Virus record (IMG/VR): IMGVR_UViG_3300027657_000001
Reading direction: 5' to 3' (one strand)
Origin: a virus
DNA: 39,126 nucleotides
The notes beneath the pieces are model-generated. The model saw nothing but the letters and a program-made list of their open reading frames with translations. It searched no databases and had not been told where the DNA came from. Below, in pieces: positions 1 through 39,126 of this stretch. Numbering within the stretch: the first letter of the stretch is position 1; each line of letters begins with the position of its first letter. Made by a program: the position numbers and the translations under genes.

Positions 1-127
1 GGACAAGGACGGGGACTTGCTCTTAAGCAAGAGGCAAGCATGAGTGATGTGGAACAAATACAGCCCCCCCAGATACCACCTTCAATGTTCCAGTTGTCCG
101 AGTCTCTCTCTCGTGAAATTCAAGAGA
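1..127. repeat. Terminal overlap, identical to 39000-39126. It marks the wrap-around of a circular or circularly permuted 38,999-bp genome.
   Basis: Compared base by base: ggacaaggacggggacttgc...cgtgaaattcaagaga occurs at both window ends. The repeat lies inside one continuous reading frame (portal). Confidence 0.95.
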
Positions 128-1893: not shown

Positions 1894-3174
1894 TTAAATA
1901 ATCGTACAAGCTTGTTCACTAGCTTGGCGTGAATTCTTACATGTAGAGAGTATTTTCTTGTAAGAAGCAATCCGTTCTGTTTGGGGCTTTGAAGTCCCCT
2001 TAATGAAAGGTAGCGCTGTTTTCATGAGAGTGCCACCTAAATTATATCCCGCTTGATACGGATCCCGTTCATACAGATCACGAGAGTCTTCTATCCATTC
2101 TAACAACGCATCATGTAGAGGTGTATCAACATCAATGCCAAAGTTAACCGCAAAAGATTCAACGAGGAGATTACAGATACTGTGGGCTGCATCGACAATA
2201 GGCCTCACCAAAGCATCAGTCGCTCCCCGTGTCGTACCATACGCTGCCAGTAACGGATGCATAACGCTCTCAATCGCTTGCGTATTCAATGCACCCCATT
2301 GCTCCCATTCAAGAGTTGCGTGTCTCTCTACCATCAATGCTGTCTCTGCAACACTCGCATTAATGTATTGGGTCGTTTCAGACCAGTTAATATCTGTCGT
2401 AAAATTAGGAACGGTGATGCCTTCGCTTCGAAGCATGCCATCGACGTTGTAAATGTCCGTGGTGCATGTCATAGACGTACGCACAAAGTCACAGCTGGCA
2501 AGAATACGATCCTTTCGAGCCTTCACCTCTGGACGCTCTTCATATTTCAATCTGATTGATTCTAGTTGGCGATCGCTGATAACTCCCTGCATATGCAAGA
2601 TAGCAAAACGAGTCAATATCGAGCGAGCCTCATCCTCATTACGAGTGATCATCATCTCCATGGTTTCTACCACTTCAGGAGAATTGGCATGTGACGACCA
2701 GAGCTGAAGCATCTTGGTATAATACAGACGATCTCGTGGAGAAATATCTCTAAGAGAGAGATAATCCATAATACGGCTACGCTCTAATTGCATATGATGA
2801 ATATCTAAATGCTCTACCAAGCGCGTAAATTCTTGGTGTTTCTTTGCCAGATCCCATTGCTGCTGCCGTGGAAGCGTTCTCATATCGATCCCATGCAATG
2901 AGCGACCTGCATTTAAATCATCCAGCGTATATTCTCTTGTATGATGCATAGATGAACGAGCACGGCGTTCCGGTGAATATCCGTGATACTCTCCAGTTAC
3001 AAGTGTTTGTAATACACACCCAAACGTTTCATGCAAGGTGGGGGGTTCATCAAGAAAAATATTAAATGGTCTTTCTTCTGCTGAGTGCCCACCTCCCCTA
3101 AAGGATCGCTCCGATGCTCCTATAAAAACAGTAAAAAAAAGTAGTGGAAATGTAGTGAATTTATGTAGTACCAT
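1894..3174 (-). CDS. Secreted protein of unknown function (426 aa), encoded antisense within the head-gene module
   Basis: Long ORF with GAGGAG 8 nt before the ATG. The hydrophobic N-terminus MVLHKFTTFPLLFFTVFIGAS looks like a signal peptide. It has its own terminator. Confidence 0.8.
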   Translation of the reverse strand: MVLHKFTTFPLLFFTVFIGASERSFRGGGHSAEERPFNIFLDEPPTLHETFGCVLQTLVTGEYHGYSPERRARSSMHHTREYTLDDLNAGRSLHGIDMRTLPRQQQWDLAKKHQEFTRLVEHLDIHHMQLERSRIMDYLSLRDISPRDRLYYTKMLQLWSSHANSPEVVETMEMMITRNEDEARSILTRFAILHMQGVISDRQLESIRLKYEERPEVKARKDRILASCDFVRTSMTCTTDIYNVDGMLRSEGITVPNFTTDINWSETTQYINASVAETALMVERHATLEWEQWGALNTQAIESVMHPLLAAYGTTRGATDALVRPIVDAAHSICNLLVESFAVNFGIDVDTPLHDALLEWIEDSRDLYERDPYQAGYNLGGTLMKTALPFIKGTSKPQTERIASYKKILSTCKNSRQASEQACTII

Positions 3175-4626: not shown

Positions 4627-4938
4627 ATGGCTGTAACTACTACAAGCCTTCTGCCCGCTCCAGTACAACAATCGTTTAGTTATAAACTATTGTCTGTTCC
4701 AACACCAGATTTTATTCACACGTTACCTGCTGAGAAGAAATACATGCCACGTCACGGTGGTACTACTCTTCGTTTCCGCAGATATAACCCACTGAATACG
4801 GCGTTGGTTCCACTGGGGAATAGCGGTGTTACACCACCAGCTCAAACACTGAGCGCTGTCGACATTGATGCCCGCATGTCATTCTATGGTACATATGTCA
4901 TACTCAACGAGCAGGTAACTCTGCAAAATCAAGACCCT
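4627..4938 (+). CDS. Major capsid protein, exon 1
   Basis: GGAGAGG then ATG at 4627. KYMPRHGGTTLRFRRYNPL...YVILNEQVTLQNQDP resembles the N4-gp56-type capsid family. The unspliced frame runs into a short unrelated tail and stops at 5001. Confidence 0.85.
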
Positions 4939-4993
4939 AAAATGAATGGGGTCTATAAACTTTCTCTAATTGACTTGGAAGCCGAAGTAGCTC

Positions 4994-5503
4994 TTAGCTA
5001 ACCGGTGACAGGGCCGAAGGATTTTTTAAAGGATGTTCATGCCAACGACTATTAAGATTGCGCAACTCACTCATAAGCTCAAAACGCTGATCATTGATCT
5101 GATCAGGAAGTCTTTTGCTTCCGATGTTTTTGCAGGTCTTTCTATATCGTCTCATGACATCACAATGTGGCTTTTTAATAATAAGATATGGTTCAACTAC
5201 ATCAAGAAGATAATCAAGCATTTCTCCGGTAGCTTGCCAGTTATAAACAGGTCGCGTAAATTTCTTTTTACTCGTCCATCTATAGCGGGAATCACGAGCT
5301 CCTCCAAATGTTTGTTCCAACCACTTAATGAGAATCTCATCGCAACTGGTTACTTTGAGCATGACATGCCATTGCCATCCAGATCCGTATTTACCTTGCT
5401 TAACTCTACCGATGTAGAAGCAACCTTCTCCATCGATGATTCCAGCAAGATAAGCAATTTGAGTGGCAATTTGGTGAGTATGAAAAATAACTTTTTTAGC
5501 CAT
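4994..5503 (-). CDS. LAGLIDADG homing endonuclease (single-motif type), antisense to the intron and capsid gene
   Basis: Motif YLAGIIDGEGCF plus LDYLLDVVEPYLIIKK. ATG at 5503 (MAKKVIF...). The track ORF extends to 5554. Confidence 0.85.
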   Translation of the reverse strand: MAKKVIFHTHQIATQIAYLAGIIDGEGCFYIGRVKQGKYGSGWQWHVMLKVTSCDEILIKWLEQTFGGARDSRYRWTSKKKFTRPVYNWQATGEMLDYLLDVVEPYLIIKKPHCDVMRRYRKTCKNIGSKRLPDQINDQRFELMSELRNLNSRWHEHPLKNPSALSPVS

Positions 5504-5524
5504 ATTGAATCTTTCGTTAATAGC

Positions 5525-5533
5525 AGTATAGCA
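5525..5533 (-). promoter_or_regulatory. Candidate extended -10 promoter (TGcTATACT) for the homing endonuclease gene
   Basis: On the minus strand, tgctatact lies 21 nt upstream of the ATG at 5503. The -35 region is weak. Confidence 0.3.
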
Positions 5534-5723
5534 CATAACGAATGTAAAATCCACGGTGAACGACTAAGTGAGAAAGCAAATGAGATGGAAATAGATAGTA
5601 CAAGAGCTTTTTGTCTCATTTGATGCGATAGTCTGACCTCCGTTCGATAAGACGGAGAGGGAGACCCGAAGAGGTTTCCCCGCCCGAAAGGGTCAGTAGC
5701 CGAAAGGTGAAAGTAACAGAACG

Positions 5724-6362
5724 GTTCTTAACGAAGCGGCAAATAGATTGGGCGTATCCCTTAAGCAAACAGAGGATACTCTTGCTCGTGATATGCTTGC
5801 TTCTACGGCATCGGTTATTAACTGCGTTGGCGGCGTGAACGGAGACAATCCGACTGAAATGACTCGCTCAGACGTAGACCAGGTAGTAAAAGTACTTAAA
5901 GGAAACGATTCTAAACCGTTTCTTTCTGGTATGGCTGGAGAAGACAAATTTGGGTCTGCTCCGGTTCGCTGGGCGTACTTTGCACTTGGAAGTACTGACC
6001 TCATTGGAGATTTGGAGAACGTGTCTGGGTTTATTTCTCAAGCACAGTACCCAAATCCGATGAATGCAATCAGTGATGCTGAGTGGGGTTCTATATCTAA
6101 CCTTCGATTCATGCTGTCTTCAATCGGCTCTAAAACAGCTAATTCTTCTGCAAATGGAAATGACGTATACAACGTCTTCTGTGTTGCACGTGAAGCATAC
6201 GCATGCGTTGAACAAGATGGATATAGCGCACAATTCATCTATCGCCCACCTATCTATGATGGGCCGTTAGCGCAGAACTCTTCTGCAGGGTATAAAATGG
6301 CACAAGTACCTCGAATCTTGAACGATCTCTGGGTACAAAACCTACGTTGCACCCTAGCGTAA
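5724..6362 (+). CDS. Major capsid protein, exon 2
   Basis: The frame is open from 5700. VLNEAANRLGVSLKQTEDTLARDML continues the capsid motif from exon 1. Both exons are multiples of 3 nt, and the spliced product is 316 aa. Confidence 0.85.
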   Translation, partial: VLNEAANRLGVSLKQTEDTLARDMLASTASVINCVGGVNGDNPTEMTRSDVDQVVKVLKGNDSKPFLSGMAGEDKFGSAPVRWAYFALGSTDLIGDLENVSGFISQAQYPNPMNAISDAEWGSISNLRFMLSSIGSKTANSSANGNDVYNVFCVAREAYACVEQDGYSAQFIYRPPIYDGPLAQNSSAGYKMAQVPRILNDLWVQNLRCTLA

Positions 6363-34035: not shown

Positions 34036-34503
34036 ATGAGCGAGTCAAAAAAAAGGCATTTTCAAATGCCAACGGTGAAACGAATCGTTGAGTATTGGAA
34101 TAACAAATTTACTATTTACGATAAAGAATGTTTTGCGTGCGGAAGAATAGCACCACTTCACAGAGCGCATATTGTCCCTTCTTGGATTGAAGAAAATAAT
34201 CACGTATCAAATCTACATCTATTATGTACTATGTGTCATGCTGAATCAGAAGGGCTGAAGCTCTATCAAGAGTGGTTTGATTATAAGCGAAAAAATGAAC
34301 GAAAAGATCCCGTTTCTCATGTTATAGACATGTGGAAAAAGTGCGGTATTCCATTTGATGAAGATGCTAAAGAGTTTGAATTGTATGAAGAGAAATTTGG
34401 AATAGAAAAATACTATAAAGAACTCTTGCCACGCTATATAGAAGAAACGCTAGATAAAGTTTACTACAATAAGCCTTATGCAAAAAAAGAAATGGGGATG
34501 TAG
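34036..34503 (+). CDS. HNH homing-type endonuclease (155 aa)
   Basis: CFACG...LHRAHIVP...NLHLLCTMCH gives the CxxC..H..N..CxxCH arrangement. Confidence 0.8.
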   Translation: MSESKKRHFQMPTVKRIVEYWNNKFTIYDKECFACGRIAPLHRAHIVPSWIEENNHVSNLHLLCTMCHAESEGLKLYQEWFDYKRKNERKDPVSHVIDMWKKCGIPFDEDAKEFELYEEKFGIEKYYKELLPRYIEETLDKVYYNKPYAKKEMGM

Positions 34504-34571
34504 CTCAGTTTGGTTAGAGCGTCCGCCTGTCACGCGGAAGGCCGCGAGTTCAAGTCTCGTCATTCCCGCCA
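34494..34571 (+). tRNA. tRNA-Asp: tRNA-Asp (anticodon GUC) with encoded CCA
   Basis: Cloverleaf folded by hand. Acceptor ggggatg/cattccc, D stem gctc/gagc, anticodon stem tccgc/gcgga with loop ctGTCac, T stem gcgag/ctcgt with loop ttcaagt, discriminator g, then cca. Confidence 0.9.
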
Positions 34572-34882: not shown

Positions 34883-37279
34883 GTGAACTTAGAAACAAAA
34901 ATAAAATTAGACGCCTTTCGCCCTAGACCATATCAGAAGCAGCCATTAGACGCTCTTTTCAACAAGGGCTATAAGAGAATGCTATTGGTGTGGCCGCGAC
35001 GCGGAGGCAAAGACGTCACCAGTTGGAATATCATCATACGAGCAGCCCTTACGAAAGTAGGGGTATATTTTTACTGTGCACCTACCTACTCACAAGGCCG
35101 CAAGATTATATGGGACTCTATAACAAATCATGCGGTTAAATTTTTAGATTATCTTCCAAAGGAGTTGATAGATCGGAAGAATGACCAGCAAATGAAGCTG
35201 CATTTAAAGAACGGCTCACTCATCCAGATCATTGGCTCTGATTCCTATGATAATTCAATAGTCGGGTCTAATCCTCAAGGGATCATATTTACAGAGTGGG
35301 CTTTGTCTGATGAGCGTGCGTGGCAGTTTGCTCGTCCTATTTTAATGGCGAATGACGGGTGGGCTATCTTCAATTCTACGCCAAGAGGCAAGAACCATTT
35401 ATGGGCTATGTATCAGCTAGCTCTACACTCTCCACAATGGTTTTGTCAAAAGCTTACCATTGAAGATACGGGTCACATTGATATTGAAACAATCCAAAGA
35501 GAACGTGCTTCTGGTGAGATGTCTGAGGATCTTATTCAGCAAGAATATTTTTGCTTTCCAGGTACTCAAGAGGTATTAGCTCTTGATGGATTAAAGTCTA
35601 TATCCGATATAGAAGTTAATGATATGGTCATATCTCATTCGGGAAGACCGAGAAAAGTTTTAAATACTATAAAAAGAGACTATGAAGGCGATCTAGTTAA
35701 AATATATTCATTTGGGTCTCCAGAGCCTCTGATATGTACGCCAAATCATCCTATACGGGTTTTTAATAAGGCCGCTCAAACATATTCATGGAAAAGAGCG
35801 GAAGATATTACCTTACATGATCGTCTCGTGTTTCCTAAAATGCCACTGGGGAAAGTGCAACTTATATCATATGATCTTTGTATGCTTATTGCTTGGTATA
35901 TCTGTGAAGGCTCTTCTTTTAAAAATGGTGTTCAATTTACTGTTGGGGACACAAGAGAAGTGGAACGCATTACGTCTCTTTTGTGTAATATAAATGTTCC
36001 ATATACTCTTTTTGTGTCTTCAAATGGATCATCAACCAATATTGTCGTTTCAAGCACTCAATTAGTTGATTTTTTTAAATCACTTTGTGGAACAGAATCA
36101 AATAATAAGCGCATACCGTTTATATGGATCGCTACGCATGAGATAGATTTTTTTCATGAGCTTATGTGGGGAGATGGCTGTTATTCAGAGCATAACAATT
36201 ATAAAAAATTTTCTTACACAACAACAAGTAAGACTCTTGCTTACCAAGTTCAGCTTCTTGCCAATAGTCTAAATCTTGGATATGCAGCGGGTATAACGAA
36301 CCGAAAGGGAAGTACTGCTACTTTTCCGCACGGTAAAACCTATAAATGCAAAGATTCGTATTCGGTGCAGATCGGCATAAAAGGCTTGAGAGAAAAGCAT
36401 GGTGCCTTAACAAGAGCAAAATACGGAATAGCTGCTCGTATCAAAAATATAGAAAGAGAAAGTCATAAAGGGGCCGTATACAACTTAAAAGTACAATACG
36501 ATGAAAGCTATGTGGTATTAGGACGCTCGGTACATAACTGTAGCTTTGAGATGGGCGTTGAGGGTTCATTCTACGCGAAATATATCGACACTATGAGACG
36601 AGAGGGACGGATTGGAATAGTTCCCCATGAATCTACTTTCCCAGTACATACAGCATGGGATTTAGGTGTTTCAAAAACTGATTCAACGGCGATAATATGT
36701 TTTCAGGTGATTGGTCAGACCATTAAAATAATTGATTGTTATGAGAGTACTAAGCAAGGTTTTCCAGAATATTTGCATATTCTAGAACAAAAAAAGAAAG
36801 AAGACGGATGGATATGGGGAAAGCATTTTGCGCCACATGATATAAAGGTTTTAGAATTTGGTTCTGGTTTGACACGCCTCGATATTGCAAGGAATATGGG
36901 ATTTTCTTTTGAGGTAAGGAGAGATAGGCATAATAATATTCAATCATTACTTCCACCGCTTACTATAATGGATGGTATTGAGCAAGTGAGAACTATTTTT
37001 CCCCGTGTTTGGATAGATGAACAAAAATGCTCTCCCCTTATTAAAGCTTTAGAAAACTATCGAGCAGAATTTGATACTAGAAATAATGTATATAAACGAA
37101 TACCTGTTCATAATTGGGCGTCACACATGGCCGATGCCATGAGATATTTGGCTATAGCAATTAAGTTAACACAAACGCGCAACTCTACGCCTGAAGAGCT
37201 TGAAAAGAGATACCGTGAAGCCGTCTATGGGCCTCAGCACGGAGGATTTTTCGGTGGACACGGTACGCATCAATGGTAG
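34883..37279 (+). CDS. terL: Terminase large subunit precursor (798 aa) containing an intein
   Basis: Walker A-like WPRRGGKDVTS, Walker B-like GIIFTEW, and nuclease-domain acidic motifs (AWDLGVS, FAPHD, HMADAMRYL). GTG start. Confidence 0.85.
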   Translation: MNLETKIKLDAFRPRPYQKQPLDALFNKGYKRMLLVWPRRGGKDVTSWNIIIRAALTKVGVYFYCAPTYSQGRKIIWDSITNHAVKFLDYLPKELIDRKNDQQMKLHLKNGSLIQIIGSDSYDNSIVGSNPQGIIFTEWALSDERAWQFARPILMANDGWAIFNSTPRGKNHLWAMYQLALHSPQWFCQKLTIEDTGHIDIETIQRERASGEMSEDLIQQEYFCFPGTQEVLALDGLKSISDIEVNDMVISHSGRPRKVLNTIKRDYEGDLVKIYSFGSPEPLICTPNHPIRVFNKAAQTYSWKRAEDITLHDRLVFPKMPLGKVQLISYDLCMLIAWYICEGSSFKNGVQFTVGDTREVERITSLLCNINVPYTLFVSSNGSSTNIVVSSTQLVDFFKSLCGTESNNKRIPFIWIATHEIDFFHELMWGDGCYSEHNNYKKFSYTTTSKTLAYQVQLLANSLNLGYAAGITNRKGSTATFPHGKTYKCKDSYSVQIGIKGLREKHGALTRAKYGIAARIKNIERESHKGAVYNLKVQYDESYVVLGRSVHNCSFEMGVEGSFYAKYIDTMRREGRIGIVPHESTFPVHTAWDLGVSKTDSTAIICFQVIGQTIKIIDCYESTKQGFPEYLHILEQKKKEDGWIWGKHFAPHDIKVLEFGSGLTRLDIARNMGFSFEVRRDRHNNIQSLLPPLTIMDGIEQVRTIFPRVWIDEQKCSPLIKALENYRAEFDTRNNVYKRIPVHNWASHMADAMRYLAIAIKLTQTRNSTPEELEKRYREAVYGPQHGGFFGGHGTHQW
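35552..36538 (+). mobile_element. Intein (329 aa) with a LAGLIDADG endonuclease domain inside terL
   Basis: Starts CFPGTQEVLALDG. Has block B CTPNHP and LAGLIDADG-type motifs LIAWYICEGS and ELMWGDGCY. Ends VVLGRSVHN, followed by Cys+1 (CSFEMG). Visibly more AT-rich than the exteins. Confidence 0.85.
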
Positions 37280-37853: not shown

Positions 37854-39126
37854 ATGTCATTGTTTCCAAATCCTGGGCCTGATTTTAATACCACGGATGA
37901 CATAATCCTTAAAAGGATGGAAAAGTTTTATACTGATGCGATTTCTATAAATCAGTCTCAATGGGCGGAAGGTGACATAGATTGGCGATTTTATTGTGGT
38001 GATCAGTCAGTCTACCAAGAGTTGTACGGGAATATGGCACCCCTTCATAGAAAGAATTTTAGCTTCAACCGTATTCGGAGAATTGTTTCTCTTATAGAAG
38101 GCTTTCAGCGTCGTAACCGAAAATCTACCACGGTTATACCTGTGGAGGGATCAGATCAAGAAACGGCAGATCAATTCACTAAGCTTATGTATTACCTTAA
38201 CAATAGAGAAGGCGTACTGGATACTGTCTCTACGTCGTTTAAGGGTGCTCTTATTTCTGGAATGGATCTTCTGCAGGTGTATGTTGATTATCGACGTGAT
38301 CCTGTTTCAGGTGACGTTAAGGTAGACAACAACGCGTATAATTCTTTTCTTATTGATCCATTCTTTAGAAAATCTGATCTTTCTGATTGTAACACGATCT
38401 GGAAACGTTCATACGTCTCTCGCAAAGAGGCAATTTCCCTCAATCCCGCAAAGGCGGATGAAATTGAGGCACTTCAATCGTTCGTCGCTGATAAATCTGG
38501 AGATATGAAGTTCCAGTTTATGCCTGAGAACTACTCCATAAGTGGGAAAAACCTTCTTTCCTATGATGAATTTTATTATAGAGATTATCGCCTCCAAAAG
38601 ATGTTGGTTGACTCACAAACTGGTGAAACGTTTGAATGGCGAGTAGATGATGAAGCTGCATTGCGGGAATTCCTCGCTCTTTATCCACAAATTACTACCA
38701 TTGATCAAGAGATTCCTACCGTACGGGTAGCAATCGTAGTCCAAGGGAAGGTAATGTACGATGGCCCTAATCCCATGGGCATTGATTCTTTCCCCTTTGT
38801 TCCTGTTTTTGCATATTTTTCTCCGGAAGTGGCATACTACCCACTGCGCGTCCAAGGAGTTGTTTCAAACCTTCGGGACGCGCAGTTCCTTTACAATAGA
38901 AGAAAAGTTATTGAACTCGATATACTTGAATCTCAAATCAATTCTGGTTTCAAGTATAAGGCGGACTCACTCGTAAACCCCGCTGACGTATTCCTTTCTG
39001 GACAAGGACGGGGACTTGCTCTTAAGCAAGAGGCAAGCATGAGTGATGTGGAACAAATACAGCCCCCCCAGATACCACCTTCAATGTTCCAGTTGTCCGA
39101 GTCTCTCTCTCGTGAAATTCAAGAGA
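37854..39126 (+). CDS. Portal protein, N-terminal part. Open to the window end and continuing at base 128. Full length is 676 aa.
   Basis: AAGGGAG upstream of ATG 37854. I translated every codon to 39126 and found no stop. Includes LRDAQFLYNRRKVIELD. It is absent from the ORF track because no stop occurs before the window ends. Confidence 0.85.
   Translation, partial: MSLFPNPGPDFNTTDDIILKRMEKFYTDAISINQSQWAEGDIDWRFYCGDQSVYQELYGNMAPLHRKNFSFNRIRRIVSLIEGFQRRNRKSTTVIPVEGSDQETADQFTKLMYYLNNREGVLDTVSTSFKGALISGMDLLQVYVDYRRDPVSGDVKVDNNAYNSFLIDPFFRKSDLSDCNTIWKRSYVSRKEAISLNPAKADEIEALQSFVADKSGDMKFQFMPENYSISGKNLLSYDEFYYRDYRLQKMLVDSQTGETFEWRVDDEAALREFLALYPQITTIDQEIPTVRVAIVVQGKVMYDGPNPMGIDSFPFVPVFAYFSPEVAYYPLRVQGVVSNLRDAQFLYNRRKVIELDILESQINSGFKYKADSLVNPADVFLSGQGRGLALKQEASMSDVEQIQPPQIPPSMFQLSESLSREIQE
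39000..39126. repeat. Second copy of the 127-bp terminal overlap
   Basis: Identical to 1-127. Offset is 38,999 bp. Confidence 0.95.

What the first reader, a model, noticed from the sequence alone, without database searches (positions are those of the whole stretch)
35552..36538. 329-aa LAGLIDADG intein in the large terminase
The intein is inserted between ...IQQEYF and CSFEMGVEG..., at the boundary between the ATPase and nuclease halves. All splicing blocks are readable: Cys1 in CFPGTQEVLALDG, TxxH in CTPNHP, the terminal HN, and Cys at +1. Two LAGLIDADG-type motifs are also present. Removing it leaves a 469-aa terminase. With the capsid intron and the HNH gene, three independent homing-type elements target the packaging and capsid genes of one 39-kb genome.
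Basis: partly seen in the sequence, partly recalled or inferred. Interest (0 to 1): 0.7.

Follow-up and report, generated by a model that had tools for sequence, protein, structure and literature searches.

The report
Homing intein in phage large terminase
The large terminase gene of this roughly 39-kb uncultured phage carries a real, intact self-splicing protein element (an intein) with its own DNA-cutting domain; this is a well-known kind of selfish element in phage packaging genes, so it is a solid but ordinary find.

Summary
ORF 34883..37279 encodes 798 aa. Codons 224-552 (nt 35552..36538, 329 aa) are an in-frame insertion between ...IQQEYF and CSFEMGVEG.... About 50 intein-less terminases here, and all 584 GenBank phage hits, run collinear across that point.

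The insert has all class 1 intein residues: Cys1, T63-x-x-H66, D317, H328-N329 and Cys+1. It has two LAGLIDADG motifs with catalytic E119 and D208. An AlphaFold model (pLDDT 94.6) matches solved intein-endonucleases (TliVMA, PI-SceI, PI-PfuI; E down to 4e-18).

Seventy other metagenomic terminases carry the same intein at the same site (37-80% identity), with every catalytic residue conserved. The nearest terminase relatives lack it. Intein and host-protein similarities are discordant, and empty Cys-type target sites exist. This points to active homing. Splicing and DNA cleavage are inferred, not shown.

The site lies after the last lid helix of the ATPase domain, 40 residues before the first nuclease Asp, so "domain boundary" is roughly right. 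It is not one of the seven terminase sites catalogued in mycobacteriophages, and no isolated phage in the collection has a close relative.

Verdict: new member of a known kind; modest interest.

The parts
34883..37279 (+). Large terminase (TerL) precursor gene, 798 codons plus stop, GTG start
   Evidence: ORF list and translation. The start matches the MNLET... N-terminus of the intein-less relative P0041. tblastn hits to annotated large terminases. PHROG phrog_2 terminase large subunit for P0041. Foldseek of the extein model to D6E, T4 gp17 and Sf6 gp2 terminases.
34883..35551 (+). N-extein, 223 aa: ATPase domain with Walker A-like PRRGGKD (nt 34994-35014), Walker B ...IIFTE, C-motif NSTPRG, lid helices, ending in the invariant Q-E of IQQEYF
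   Evidence: Alignments A1 and A3 with invariant R39 R40 G42 K43, E138, Q220 E221. Profile match to the P74-26 and T4 gp17 ATPase domains. Secondary structure of the model.
35552..36538 (+). Intein, 329 aa, class 1, with embedded LAGLIDADG homing endonuclease
35552..35839 (+). N-terminal splicing (HINT) region, intein aa 1-96: block A Cys1 (35552-35554) and block B T63-P-N-H66 (35738-35749)
   Evidence: C1, T63 and H66 are invariant in 71/71 homologues. Beta-strand-only architecture in the model. Pfam Hom_end_hint, Vint and Hint N-terminal matches.
35864..36400 (+). LAGLIDADG endonuclease domain, intein aa ~105-283: motif 1 LIAWYICEGS (35885-35914, catalytic E119), conserved K186, motif 2 FFHELMWGDG (36149-36178, catalytic D208)
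   Evidence: Pfam LAGLIDADG_3 at 36.4 bits. E/D119 in 70/71, K186 in 70/71, D208 in 71/71 homologues. Two alpha-beta-beta-alpha-beta-beta units in the model. Foldseek to I-DmoI, I-Tsp061I and the endonuclease domains of PI-SceI and PI-PfuI.
36407..36538 (+). C-terminal splicing region, intein aa ~286-329: block F VYNLKVQYDESY (D317) and block G GRSVHN (H328, N329)
   Evidence: D317 in 69/71, H328 and N329 in 71/71. Strands 286-328 in the model. Pfam Intein_splicing match runs to profile end 155/155.
36539..36541 (+). +1 Cys codon (TGT), first residue of the C-extein and second nucleophile of splicing
   Evidence: Cys in 71/71 intein-bearing proteins and in all 28 occupied loci that passed a filter requiring HN followed by Cys. 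Thr or Cys in the empty alleles.
36539..37279 (+). C-extein, 246 aa plus stop: linker, then RNase H-like nuclease domain (first catalytic Asp in TAWDLG, GAT 36659-36661; later HDI and ADAMRY motifs)
   Evidence: Invariant D593, H652, D653, D697 and D751 in A1. Foldseek to the P22 and G20c terminase nuclease domains.

Best explanation
Nt 35552-36538 encode a canonical class 1 intein that carries a double-motif LAGLIDADG homing endonuclease. It is inserted in frame in the large terminase, immediately after the invariant Gln-Glu of the QQE(Y/F)x motif. That motif closes the ATPase lid and leads into the nuclease domain.

Inferred mechanism from the conserved residues and established intein chemistry:

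1. The 798-aa precursor is translated late in infection.
2. Cys1 makes a thioester with Phe223.
3. Cys+1 takes over the N-extein by trans-thioesterification.
4. Asn329, helped by His328, cyclises and releases the 329-aa intein.
5. An S-to-N shift leaves a normal peptide bond and a 469-aa active terminase.

The freed intein then acts as a site-specific DNase. In a cell co-infected with a related intein-less phage, it would cut the empty terminase allele across the ...CARGARTAYTWY|TGYAGCTTYGAGATGGG... junction. Repair from the occupied allele then copies the intein in (homing).

Shown here: the sequence anatomy, the fold, the exact insertion point, conservation of all catalytic residues across 71 copies, and the patchy, host-discordant distribution. 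Inferred: that this copy splices, that its endonuclease cuts, and which sequence it recognises.
For: - **Anatomy and coordinates:**
- **Family models:** LAGLIDADG_3 is above Pfam's cut-off and Intein_splicing is 0.8 bit below it. There are intein-part matches in NCBIfam.
- **Fold:** the AlphaFold2 model has pLDDT 94.6 and pTM 0.91. Its best PDB matches are bifunctional inteins: TliVMA 7qsu (E 3.8e-18, TM 0.73), PI-SceI, PI-PfuI and PI-PkoII. I-DmoI matches the nuclease part and the hedgehog Hint domain matches the splicing part. Best viral matches are inteins in phage RNR, ThyA, polymerases and terminases.
- **Clean insertion:** there is a 329-residue gap against four annotated terminases. All 584 phage hits align in two pieces.
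- **Conservation in 71 copies at the same site:** C1, T63, H66, D208, H328, N329 and Cys+1 are 100% conserved. E/D119 and K186 are conserved in 70/71, and D317 in 69/71. The window copy matches the consensus at all 76 positions that are at least 90% conserved in the other 70. All copies are 321-333 aa, so no decayed mini-forms were seen.
- **Mobility signals:**
  - The closest terminases (P0041, P0043, P0046; 84% identical in the N-extein) lack the intein.
  - The closest intein (P0003, 80%) sits in a terminase that is only 66% and 49% identical.
  - Intein and extein identities over 1225 pairs correlate only moderately (Spearman 0.56), with discordant pairs of 20-28 points in both directions.
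  - Empty Cys-type alleles match 32 of 36 nt around the window's spliced junction.
- **Precedent:** terminase inteins of mycobacteriophages splice in a reporter, and two of them cut the intein-less allele of a partner phage (PMC5050341, read).
Against: - No experiment exists. Splicing and cleavage are inferred from residue conservation.
- Pfam Intein_splicing is just under its gathering score (35.0 vs 35.8 bits).
- Direct sequence search of the PDB gives only a weak hit (PI-PkoII, E 8e-4).
- The nearest intein-less relative differs at 9 of 36 nt around the site and has Thr (ACC) instead of Cys at +1. That particular allele may not be a target.
- Discordant identities could partly reflect unequal rates or recombination in the terminase itself. 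The window's terminase is mosaic.
Confidence: 0.88

Rival explanations
1. The element is a splicing-competent intein whose endonuclease no longer cuts. It persists by vertical descent alone, as a late stage of the homing cycle.
For: Activity was not tested. The nearest empty allele (L005) differs strongly at the junction. No pair of nearly identical inteins in clearly different terminases was found in the sampled set; the highest intein identity to the window copy is 80%.
Against: The catalytic E/D119, D208 and K186 are kept in 70-71 of 71 copies. The whole endonuclease domain is modelled with high confidence, and the window copy has no deviation at any of 76 conserved positions. No shortened copies occur. 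Closest terminase relatives lack the intein, and intein and extein similarities disagree. These patterns are not expected for a purely vertical, decaying element.
Confidence: 0.1
2. Besides being selfish, the intein is a conditional switch. Cys1 and Cys+1, or other conserved cysteines such as C62, respond to redox state or another cue, so active terminase appears only when conditions suit packaging.
For: Cys at both junctions and a 94% conserved Cys62 next to block B. The insertion follows an invariant Q-E dyad of the motor protein. The literature proposes regulatory roles for inteins in ATPases (PMC5050341).
Against: Nothing in the sequence requires this. Insertion at conserved sites is the general rule for inteins and is explained by endonuclease target conservation. 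Many close relatives do without the intein.
Confidence: 0.07
3. It is not a splicing element but a permanent inserted domain of the terminase, or an assembly chimera.
For: Pfam Intein_splicing is marginally below its cut-off.
Against: All splicing nucleophiles and assisting residues are invariant in 71 copies. The model has the HINT fold. The insertion splits a conserved motif next to an invariant Q-E. The identical gene occurs in two independent assemblies, and related ones in dozens of metagenomes.
Confidence: 0.02

Closest known systems
Mycobacteriophage terminase inteins, sites TerL1-a to -e, TerL6-f and Pham3880-g (Kelley et al. 2016, PMC5050341)
   Same: Inteins, often with LAGLIDADG endonucleases, inserted at conserved motifs of the terminase ATPase half. 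Representatives were shown to splice, and two to cut the intein-less allele. Same logic and same host protein.
   Different: The insertion point differs. The catalogued sites are in the P-loop, a helix, Walker B, the C-motif and just after motif III. I read the Pham3880-g junction in ScottMcG gp245 as ASSPY|C...HN|SKIG. Here the site is QQEYF|C, after the lid helices. There is no detectable sequence relationship: the intein finds no Mycobacterium phage at E<=1e-3 among the listed records or top organism counts (22 further records and 3 further organism names were not shown). The host terminase family and phage type also differ (P22-like portal, ~39 kb).
Archaeal and yeast VMA/PI-type bifunctional inteins: TliVMA (7qsu), PI-SceI (1vde), PI-PfuI (1dq3), PI-PkoII (2cw7)
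   Same: Same two-domain architecture (HINT splicing domain interrupted by a double-motif LAGLIDADG nuclease). Class 1 residues. Best structural matches (E 4e-18 to 4e-12, TM up to 0.73).
   Different: Only 11-18% sequence identity. The present intein is smaller (329 aa vs 360-540) and appears to lack the extra DNA-recognition region of PI-SceI, judging by size and by the shorter aligned span. The host protein is different.
Inteins of other phage proteins: Lactococcus phage AM4 anaerobic RNR, Aeromonas phage PS1 ThyA, crAss-like phage terminases
   Same: Closest predicted viral structures (TM 0.79-0.85), and the only hits among isolated phages.
   Different: At most 26% identity, and in different host proteins or sites. 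No isolated phage in the INPHARED set has a member of this intein family.

Membership tests
Class 1 intein (HINT superfamily) | Nucleophile (Cys/Ser) as first residue | tested here: met
   Cys1, TGC 35552-35554; Cys in 71/71 homologues.
Class 1 intein (HINT superfamily) | Block B Thr-x-x-His | tested here: met
   T63-P-N-H66, nt 35738-35749; T and H invariant in 71/71.
Class 1 intein (HINT superfamily) | C-terminal His-Asn followed by Cys/Ser/Thr at +1 | tested here: met
   H328-N329 | Cys+1; invariant in 71/71.
Class 1 intein (HINT superfamily) | HINT fold of the joined N- and C-terminal regions | tested here: met
   Model with pLDDT 94.6. Foldseek to solved inteins and to hedgehog Hint 1at0.
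Class 1 intein (HINT superfamily) | In-frame insertion in a host protein whose homologues are collinear without it | tested here: met
   Exact 329-residue gap in A1. Two-piece hits in 584 phage records. About 49 empty alleles among the top homologues.
Class 1 intein (HINT superfamily) | Curated model score (Pfam Intein_splicing PF14890 gathering cut-off) | tested here: inconclusive
   35.0 bits for the isolated intein against a cut-off of 35.8; E 1.5e-8.
Class 1 intein (HINT superfamily) | Autocatalytic protein splicing | not testable with these tools
   Needs expression and detection of ligated exteins.
Class 3 intein | Trp-Cys-Thr triplet (blocks B, F, G) with an internal block F Cys as first nucleophile | tested here: not met
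   Block B is TPNH without the Trp. Block F VYNLKVQYDESY has no Cys. Block G is VHN. Cys1 is invariant. Definition from PMC5050341.
Double-motif LAGLIDADG (DOD) homing endonuclease | Two LAGLIDADG helices, each ending in an acidic catalytic residue | tested here: met
   LIAWYICE119GS and FFHELMWGD208G. E/D in 70/71 and D in 71/71. Pfam LAGLIDADG_3 at 36.4 bits, above the 22.5 cut-off.
Double-motif LAGLIDADG (DOD) homing endonuclease | Pseudo-dimeric alpha-beta-beta-alpha-beta-beta-alpha fold | tested here: met
   DSSP elements H107-119/E120-131/H134-146/E152-166/H169-179 and H197-208/E209-224/H227-239/E244-276. Foldseek to I-DmoI and I-Tsp061I.
Double-motif LAGLIDADG (DOD) homing endonuclease | Site-specific cleavage of the intein-less allele | not testable with these tools
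   Only candidate targets could be listed.
Terminase large subunit (host protein) | N-terminal P-loop ATPase (Walker A, Walker B, C-motif) plus C-terminal RNase H-like nuclease with conserved Asp residues | tested here: met
   Invariant R39 R40 G42 K43, E138, and D593/D653/D751. Profile hit to the P74-26 and T4 gp17 ATPase domains. Foldseek of the intein-less relative to D6E, T4, Sf6 and P22 terminases.
Catalogued terminase intein sites a-g (Kelley et al. 2016) | Same insertion point as one of the seven described sites | tested here: not met
   Sites a, b, e and f are in the P-loop, Walker B and C-motif. Site g was read directly as ASSPY|C..HN|SKIG. Sites c and d are described only as a poorly conserved helix and could not be aligned. 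The present site follows the invariant Q220-E221.

The most novel reading that the evidence does not exclude
This may be an undescribed terminase intein allele. Its home is the QE(Y/F)x|C junction between the ATPase lid and the nuclease domain.

- It has spread across several distantly related terminase families: P0123, P0125 and P0185 carry it at the homologous motif.
- It occurs only in uncultured phages.
- Its homing may shape the host gene. Cys is found at +1 in every occupied allele, while Thr is common in empty ones.
- Homing may also promote exchange of whole terminase domains. The window's terminase switches from about 90% to about 58% identity with its nearest relatives some 17 codons downstream of the intein.
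Probability: 0.3. Interest if true: 0.45.

Novelty: new member of a known kind. Interest (0 to 1): 0.3.

Why it matters
Inteins in phage terminases are textbook selfish elements, so the find does not change how anything is thought to work. Its practical and scientific value is more limited:

- **Annotation.** The 798-aa ORF should be annotated as a 469-aa terminase plus an intein. Terminase phylogenies and packaging-type predictions for this phage group need the intein removed.
- **A possible new catalogue entry.** The family adds an insertion site that is not among the seven experimentally studied terminase sites. It has about 70 diverse, apparently intact copies in the best 120 database matches, with natural empty target alleles. 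This is a ready-made system for studying homing, target-site immunity (Thr versus Cys at +1) and co-conversion in uncultured phage populations.
- **A possible tool.** A compact 329-aa Cys/Cys intein with an intact LAGLIDADG nuclease could also be a source of a new rare-cutting enzyme.

Tried and rejected
- **Sequence search of the PDB with the intein alone.** It gave only a weak hit (PI-PkoII, E 8e-4). The structural route was needed.
- **Scan of 185,579 representative bacterial and archaeal genomes for relatives of the intein.** Only distant (22-33%) haloarchaeal inteins turned up. There was no prophage copy, so no host could be inferred.
- **tblastn of the intein against 50,697 GenBank phage records.** Nothing was above 26% identity over most of its length (one 97-residue stretch reached 35%), and among the listed hits none was annotated as a terminase.
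- **Rfam over the whole window at gathering thresholds.** Only the tRNA was found. The "capsid intron" appears only as a sub-threshold match in a targeted search.
- **Residue-level mapping of the insertion site on solved terminases.**
  - The profile search aligned only residues 11-186 to P74-26 and T4 gp17.
  - Foldseek output gives no residue correspondences.
  - The domain-boundary statement therefore rests on the model's secondary structure and on an approximate offset to gp17 (about residue 360-370, the hinge). That offset is inference.
- **Supplementary tables of the 2016 MBE intein survey** are not held. I could not check whether prophage Terminase_6 inteins use this site.
- **Class 3 intein:** considered and rejected (no WCT triplet).
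- **BIL or non-splicing Hint domain:** considered and rejected (canonical HN and Cys+1, and an embedded nuclease).
- **Donor of the divergent nuclease half:** considered and rejected as the intein's closest relative. P0003's C-extein is only 49% identical.
Full report
**1. What is in the sequence**

The ORF 34883..37279 on the plus strand is open for 798 codons from a GTG. Its first residues (MNLET...) match the start of the nearest relative.
- TGC at 35552 is the Cys of CFPGTQEVLALDG.
- AAC at 36536-36538 is the Asn of ...GRSVHN.
- The next codon, TGT at 36539, is the Cys of CSFEMGVEG.
- The segment is 987 nt = 329 codons, and its removal leaves 469 residues.
- Its G+C content (36.7%) is below that of the window (42.9%) and of the flanking terminase parts (42.3% and 39.4%).

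**2. Is it an insertion?**

Yes.
- A tblastn search of 50,697 GenBank phage records found 584 with a homologous terminase. Every one aligned in two pieces covering 53-68% of the query, and none covered the middle.
- In an alignment with four annotated large terminases (two Manatee Spring podophages, Alteromonas phage ZP6, Pelagibacter phage HTVC010P), the 329 residues form one clean gap between QQE[FY]x and [CN][SD][WF].
- Among the 120 best matches in the 5.8-billion-protein collection, about 49 are 446-479-aa terminases that close up at the same point.

**3. Is it an intein with a homing endonuclease?**

*Sequence models.*
- Pfam LAGLIDADG_3 scores 36.4 bits (cut-off 22.5). Intein_splicing scores 35.0 bits (cut-off 35.8, E 1.5e-8) and aligns to the last profile position. 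Weaker matches to Hom_end_hint, Vint and Hint fall on the first 40-70 residues.
- NCBIfam matches fall on the intein portions of intein-containing Tes, GyrA, RpoA'', RFC and DnaB models.

*Residues.* Cys1, T63-P-N-H66 (block B), D317 in VYNLKVQYDESY (block F), H328-N329 (block G) and Cys+1 make a standard class 1 set. The Trp-Cys-Thr signature of class 3 is absent (definition in PMC5050341).

*Endonuclease.* LIAWYICE119GS and FFHELMWGD208G are the two LAGLIDADG helices with their acidic residues, 89 residues apart. K186 lies between them.

*Structure.*
- An AlphaFold2 model built on 25 family members has mean pLDDT 94.6 and pTM 0.91. It shows an all-beta splicing domain (residues 1-96 and 286-329) wrapped around two alpha-beta-beta-alpha-beta-beta units.
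- Its best matches among solved structures are bifunctional inteins: TliVMA (E 3.8e-18, TM 0.73), PI-SceI, PhoVMA, PI-PfuI and PI-PkoII.
- Free-standing LAGLIDADG enzymes (I-Tsp061I, I-DmoI) and the hedgehog Hint domain follow.
- Against predicted viral structures, the best matches are inteins inside phage RNR, ThyA, polymerases and terminases (TM up to 0.85, identity at most 24%).

**4. The family**

- Seventy other proteins among the 120 best matches carry a homologous intein (37-80% identity, aligned end to end, 321-333 aa) at the same junction: QE[YFW]x|CFP...HN|C[SND][FWY].
- Across the 71 copies, C1, T63, H66, D208, H328, N329 and Cys+1 are invariant. E/D119 and K186 are kept in 70, and D317 in 69.
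- The window copy agrees with the consensus at all 76 positions that are at least 90% conserved in the others. There is thus no sign of decay in either the splicing or the nuclease part, and no shortened mini-intein was seen at this site.
- A profile search of 1.84 billion representatives listed about 85 clusters (at 50% identity) of 700-870-aa proteins with the intein near residue 220.
- It also showed the same intein family at the homologous motif of quite different terminase families. Examples are P0123 and P0125 (...QEYE|CFP...HN|CSF and ...VEFN|CFP...HN|CNF) and P0185.
- IMG/VR holds 38 loci with relatives of the intein. At least 600 loci match the terminase-family patterns, so carriers are a minority there. 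This is a rough comparison because the search patterns differ.
- No isolated phage in GenBank has a member. The best full-length match is 26% identity, in methyltransferase, ThyA or RNR genes. No representative bacterial or archaeal genome has one either.

**5. Evidence for mobility**

- The terminases closest to the window's (P0041, P0043, P0046; 84% identical over the N-extein) have no intein.
- The closest intein (P0003, 80%) sits in a terminase that is only 66% (N) and 49% (C) identical.
- Over 1225 pairs of single-intein proteins, intein and extein identities correlate only moderately (Spearman 0.56). Some pairs differ by 20-28 points in either direction, for example P0028/P0018 (intein 73%, extein 49%) and P0018/P0026 (intein 45%, extein 73%).
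- At the DNA level, empty alleles fall into two types.
  - About 45 distinct sites have TGY (Cys) and about 26 have ACN (Thr) at the +1 codon.
  - All 23 distinct occupied sites have TGY, but they were extracted with a filter that requires Cys after HN. The unfiltered evidence is the 71 of 71 intein-bearing proteins with Cys at +1.
- Two empty Cys alleles (L034, L038) match the window's spliced junction at 32 of 36 nt. The nearest Thr allele differs at 9 of 36.
- These patterns fit an element that still homes. They suggest either that Thr alleles are poor targets or hosts, or that Cys is brought in with the intein by co-conversion. None of this is direct proof. Terminase inteins have been shown to splice, and to cut partner alleles, in mycobacteriophages (PMC5050341).

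**6. Where in the terminase?**

- The N-extein has the ATPase motifs: PRRGGKD, IIFTE and NSTPRG. The C-extein has the nuclease Asp residues, in TAWDLG, HDI and ADAMRY.
- A model of the intein-less relative P0041 has pLDDT 81.9. Its pTM of 0.59 fits two domains with an uncertain mutual orientation. It matches the D6E, T4 gp17 and Sf6 gp2 terminases, the P74-26 ATPase domain and the P22 and G20c nuclease domains.
- The order of elements in that model is as follows:
  1. last core strand, 186-190;
  2. three short helices, 193-196, 201-210 and 215-221;
  3. the insertion point, 223|224;
  4. a 14-residue coil with lower confidence;
  5. helix 236-245;
  6. first nuclease strand, 259-265, with the catalytic Asp.
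- Q220 and E221, just before the site, are invariant in 46 intein-less terminases.
- So the intein lies in the lid-to-linker segment. "Boundary of the two halves" is a fair but approximate description.
- It is not one of the seven sites described for mycobacteriophage terminases. Those are in the P-loop, a helix, Walker B and the C-motif. I read the seventh, in ScottMcG gp245, as ASSPY|C...HN|SKIG, next to motif III.
- The same terminase family has at least four further intein sites. Terminases with three inteins also exist (P0121, P0122).
  - P-loop: WPRR|C..HN|SGKD.
  - GSDNYD|C..GN|SL.
  - C-motif: FxS|C..HN|TPRGK.
  - Nuclease: ASHA|C..HN|SDAMRYL.

**7. How it most likely works**

See the best explanation: autocatalytic class 1 splicing restores a 469-aa terminase, and the excised intein acts as a homing endonuclease on empty alleles during co-infection. 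An insert of 329 residues between the lid and the nuclease domain should prevent a working motor until it is removed; this is inference. Kelley et al. make the same argument for their sites.

**8. Novelty and score**

Terminases are the commonest intein hosts in phages. There are 293 of 784 actinobacteriophage inteins in terminases (bioRxiv 10.1101/2025.01.02.630785), and crAss-like phage terminases also carry them (PMC7886860). Some database copies are already auto-labelled "intein/homing endonuclease".

This is a new member of a known kind. It sits at an insertion site that I could not find described, and it belongs to a sizeable family known only from metagenomes. Interest is 0.3.

**9. Side observations**

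The window is a circular assembly with a 127-nt terminal repeat. It also carries a split capsid-like gene with a LAGLIDADG ORF, a sporadic HNH ORF next to a tRNA-Asp, and a mosaic joint in the terminase about 17 codons after the intein. These are listed under Noticed in passing.

Noticed in passing
window 4627-6362 (insert ~4940-5720; minus-strand ORF 4994..5554; Rfam match 5406..5657): A capsid-like gene is split. The two parts lie in different frames and together match the uninterrupted 316-aa protein of the relative L005 (86% and 92% identity). The ~780-bp insert holds a minus-strand 186-aa ORF with a LAGLIDADG_1 match (23.5 bits, cut-off 23.1). It also has only a sub-threshold group I intron match (21.6 bits, cut-off 50, E 0.007).
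   Followed up: partly
window 34036-34571: A 155-aa HNH-motif ORF (PHROG HNH families, E 2e-6; no Pfam hit) ends 10 nt inside a tRNA-Asp(GTC) gene at 34494-34571, just upstream of the terminase. Neither is present in the close relative L005. Only one of about 140 related loci (L032, 38% identity) has the HNH ORF. It is therefore an accessory, possibly mobile, gene, and nothing shows what it cuts.
   Followed up: partly
window 36539-37279 (breakpoint near nt ~36590-36600, terminase residue ~240 of the spliced protein): The terminase is mosaic. It is about 90% identical to the P0041 group over spliced residues 61-240. From about residue 241 onward the identity drops to about 58%, and it is no closer to that group than to others. 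The switch lies about 17 codons downstream of the intein site. The donor of the nuclease half is unsampled, and it is not the lineage of the closest intein.
   Followed up: partly
window 1-127 and 39000-39126: An exact 127-nt terminal direct repeat, the usual sign of a circularly assembled contig. The genome unit is about 38,999 bp.
   Followed up: yes
window 1894-3174 (minus strand): A 426-aa ORF on the opposite strand to its neighbours, with no Pfam match. It lies in a ~1.65-kb stretch between the portal region and the scaffold/capsid genes that the relative L005 lacks.
   Followed up: no
related proteins P0002, P0009, P0010, P0038, P0053, P0055-P0057, P0066, P0070, P0080, P0081, P0121, P0122: The same terminase family is an intein hot spot, with at least five distinct insertion sites: P-loop, GSDNYD|SL, C-motif, QEY|C, and the nuclease ASHA|SDAMRYL motif. 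Proteins with two or three inteins reach 1472 aa. The nuclease-domain site contrasts with the ATPase-only distribution reported for mycobacteriophages (PMC5050341).
   Followed up: partly
L005, L027-L106 (empty alleles) versus L107-L141 (occupied alleles): The residue at the +1 position is polymorphic in empty terminase alleles (Thr in about 26 distinct sites, Cys in about 45, and single Ser and Asn cases). It is Cys in every occupied allele (71 proteins; the 23 distinct DNA sites were extracted with a filter that requires Cys after HN). The window's nearest relatives are of the Thr type.
   Followed up: partly
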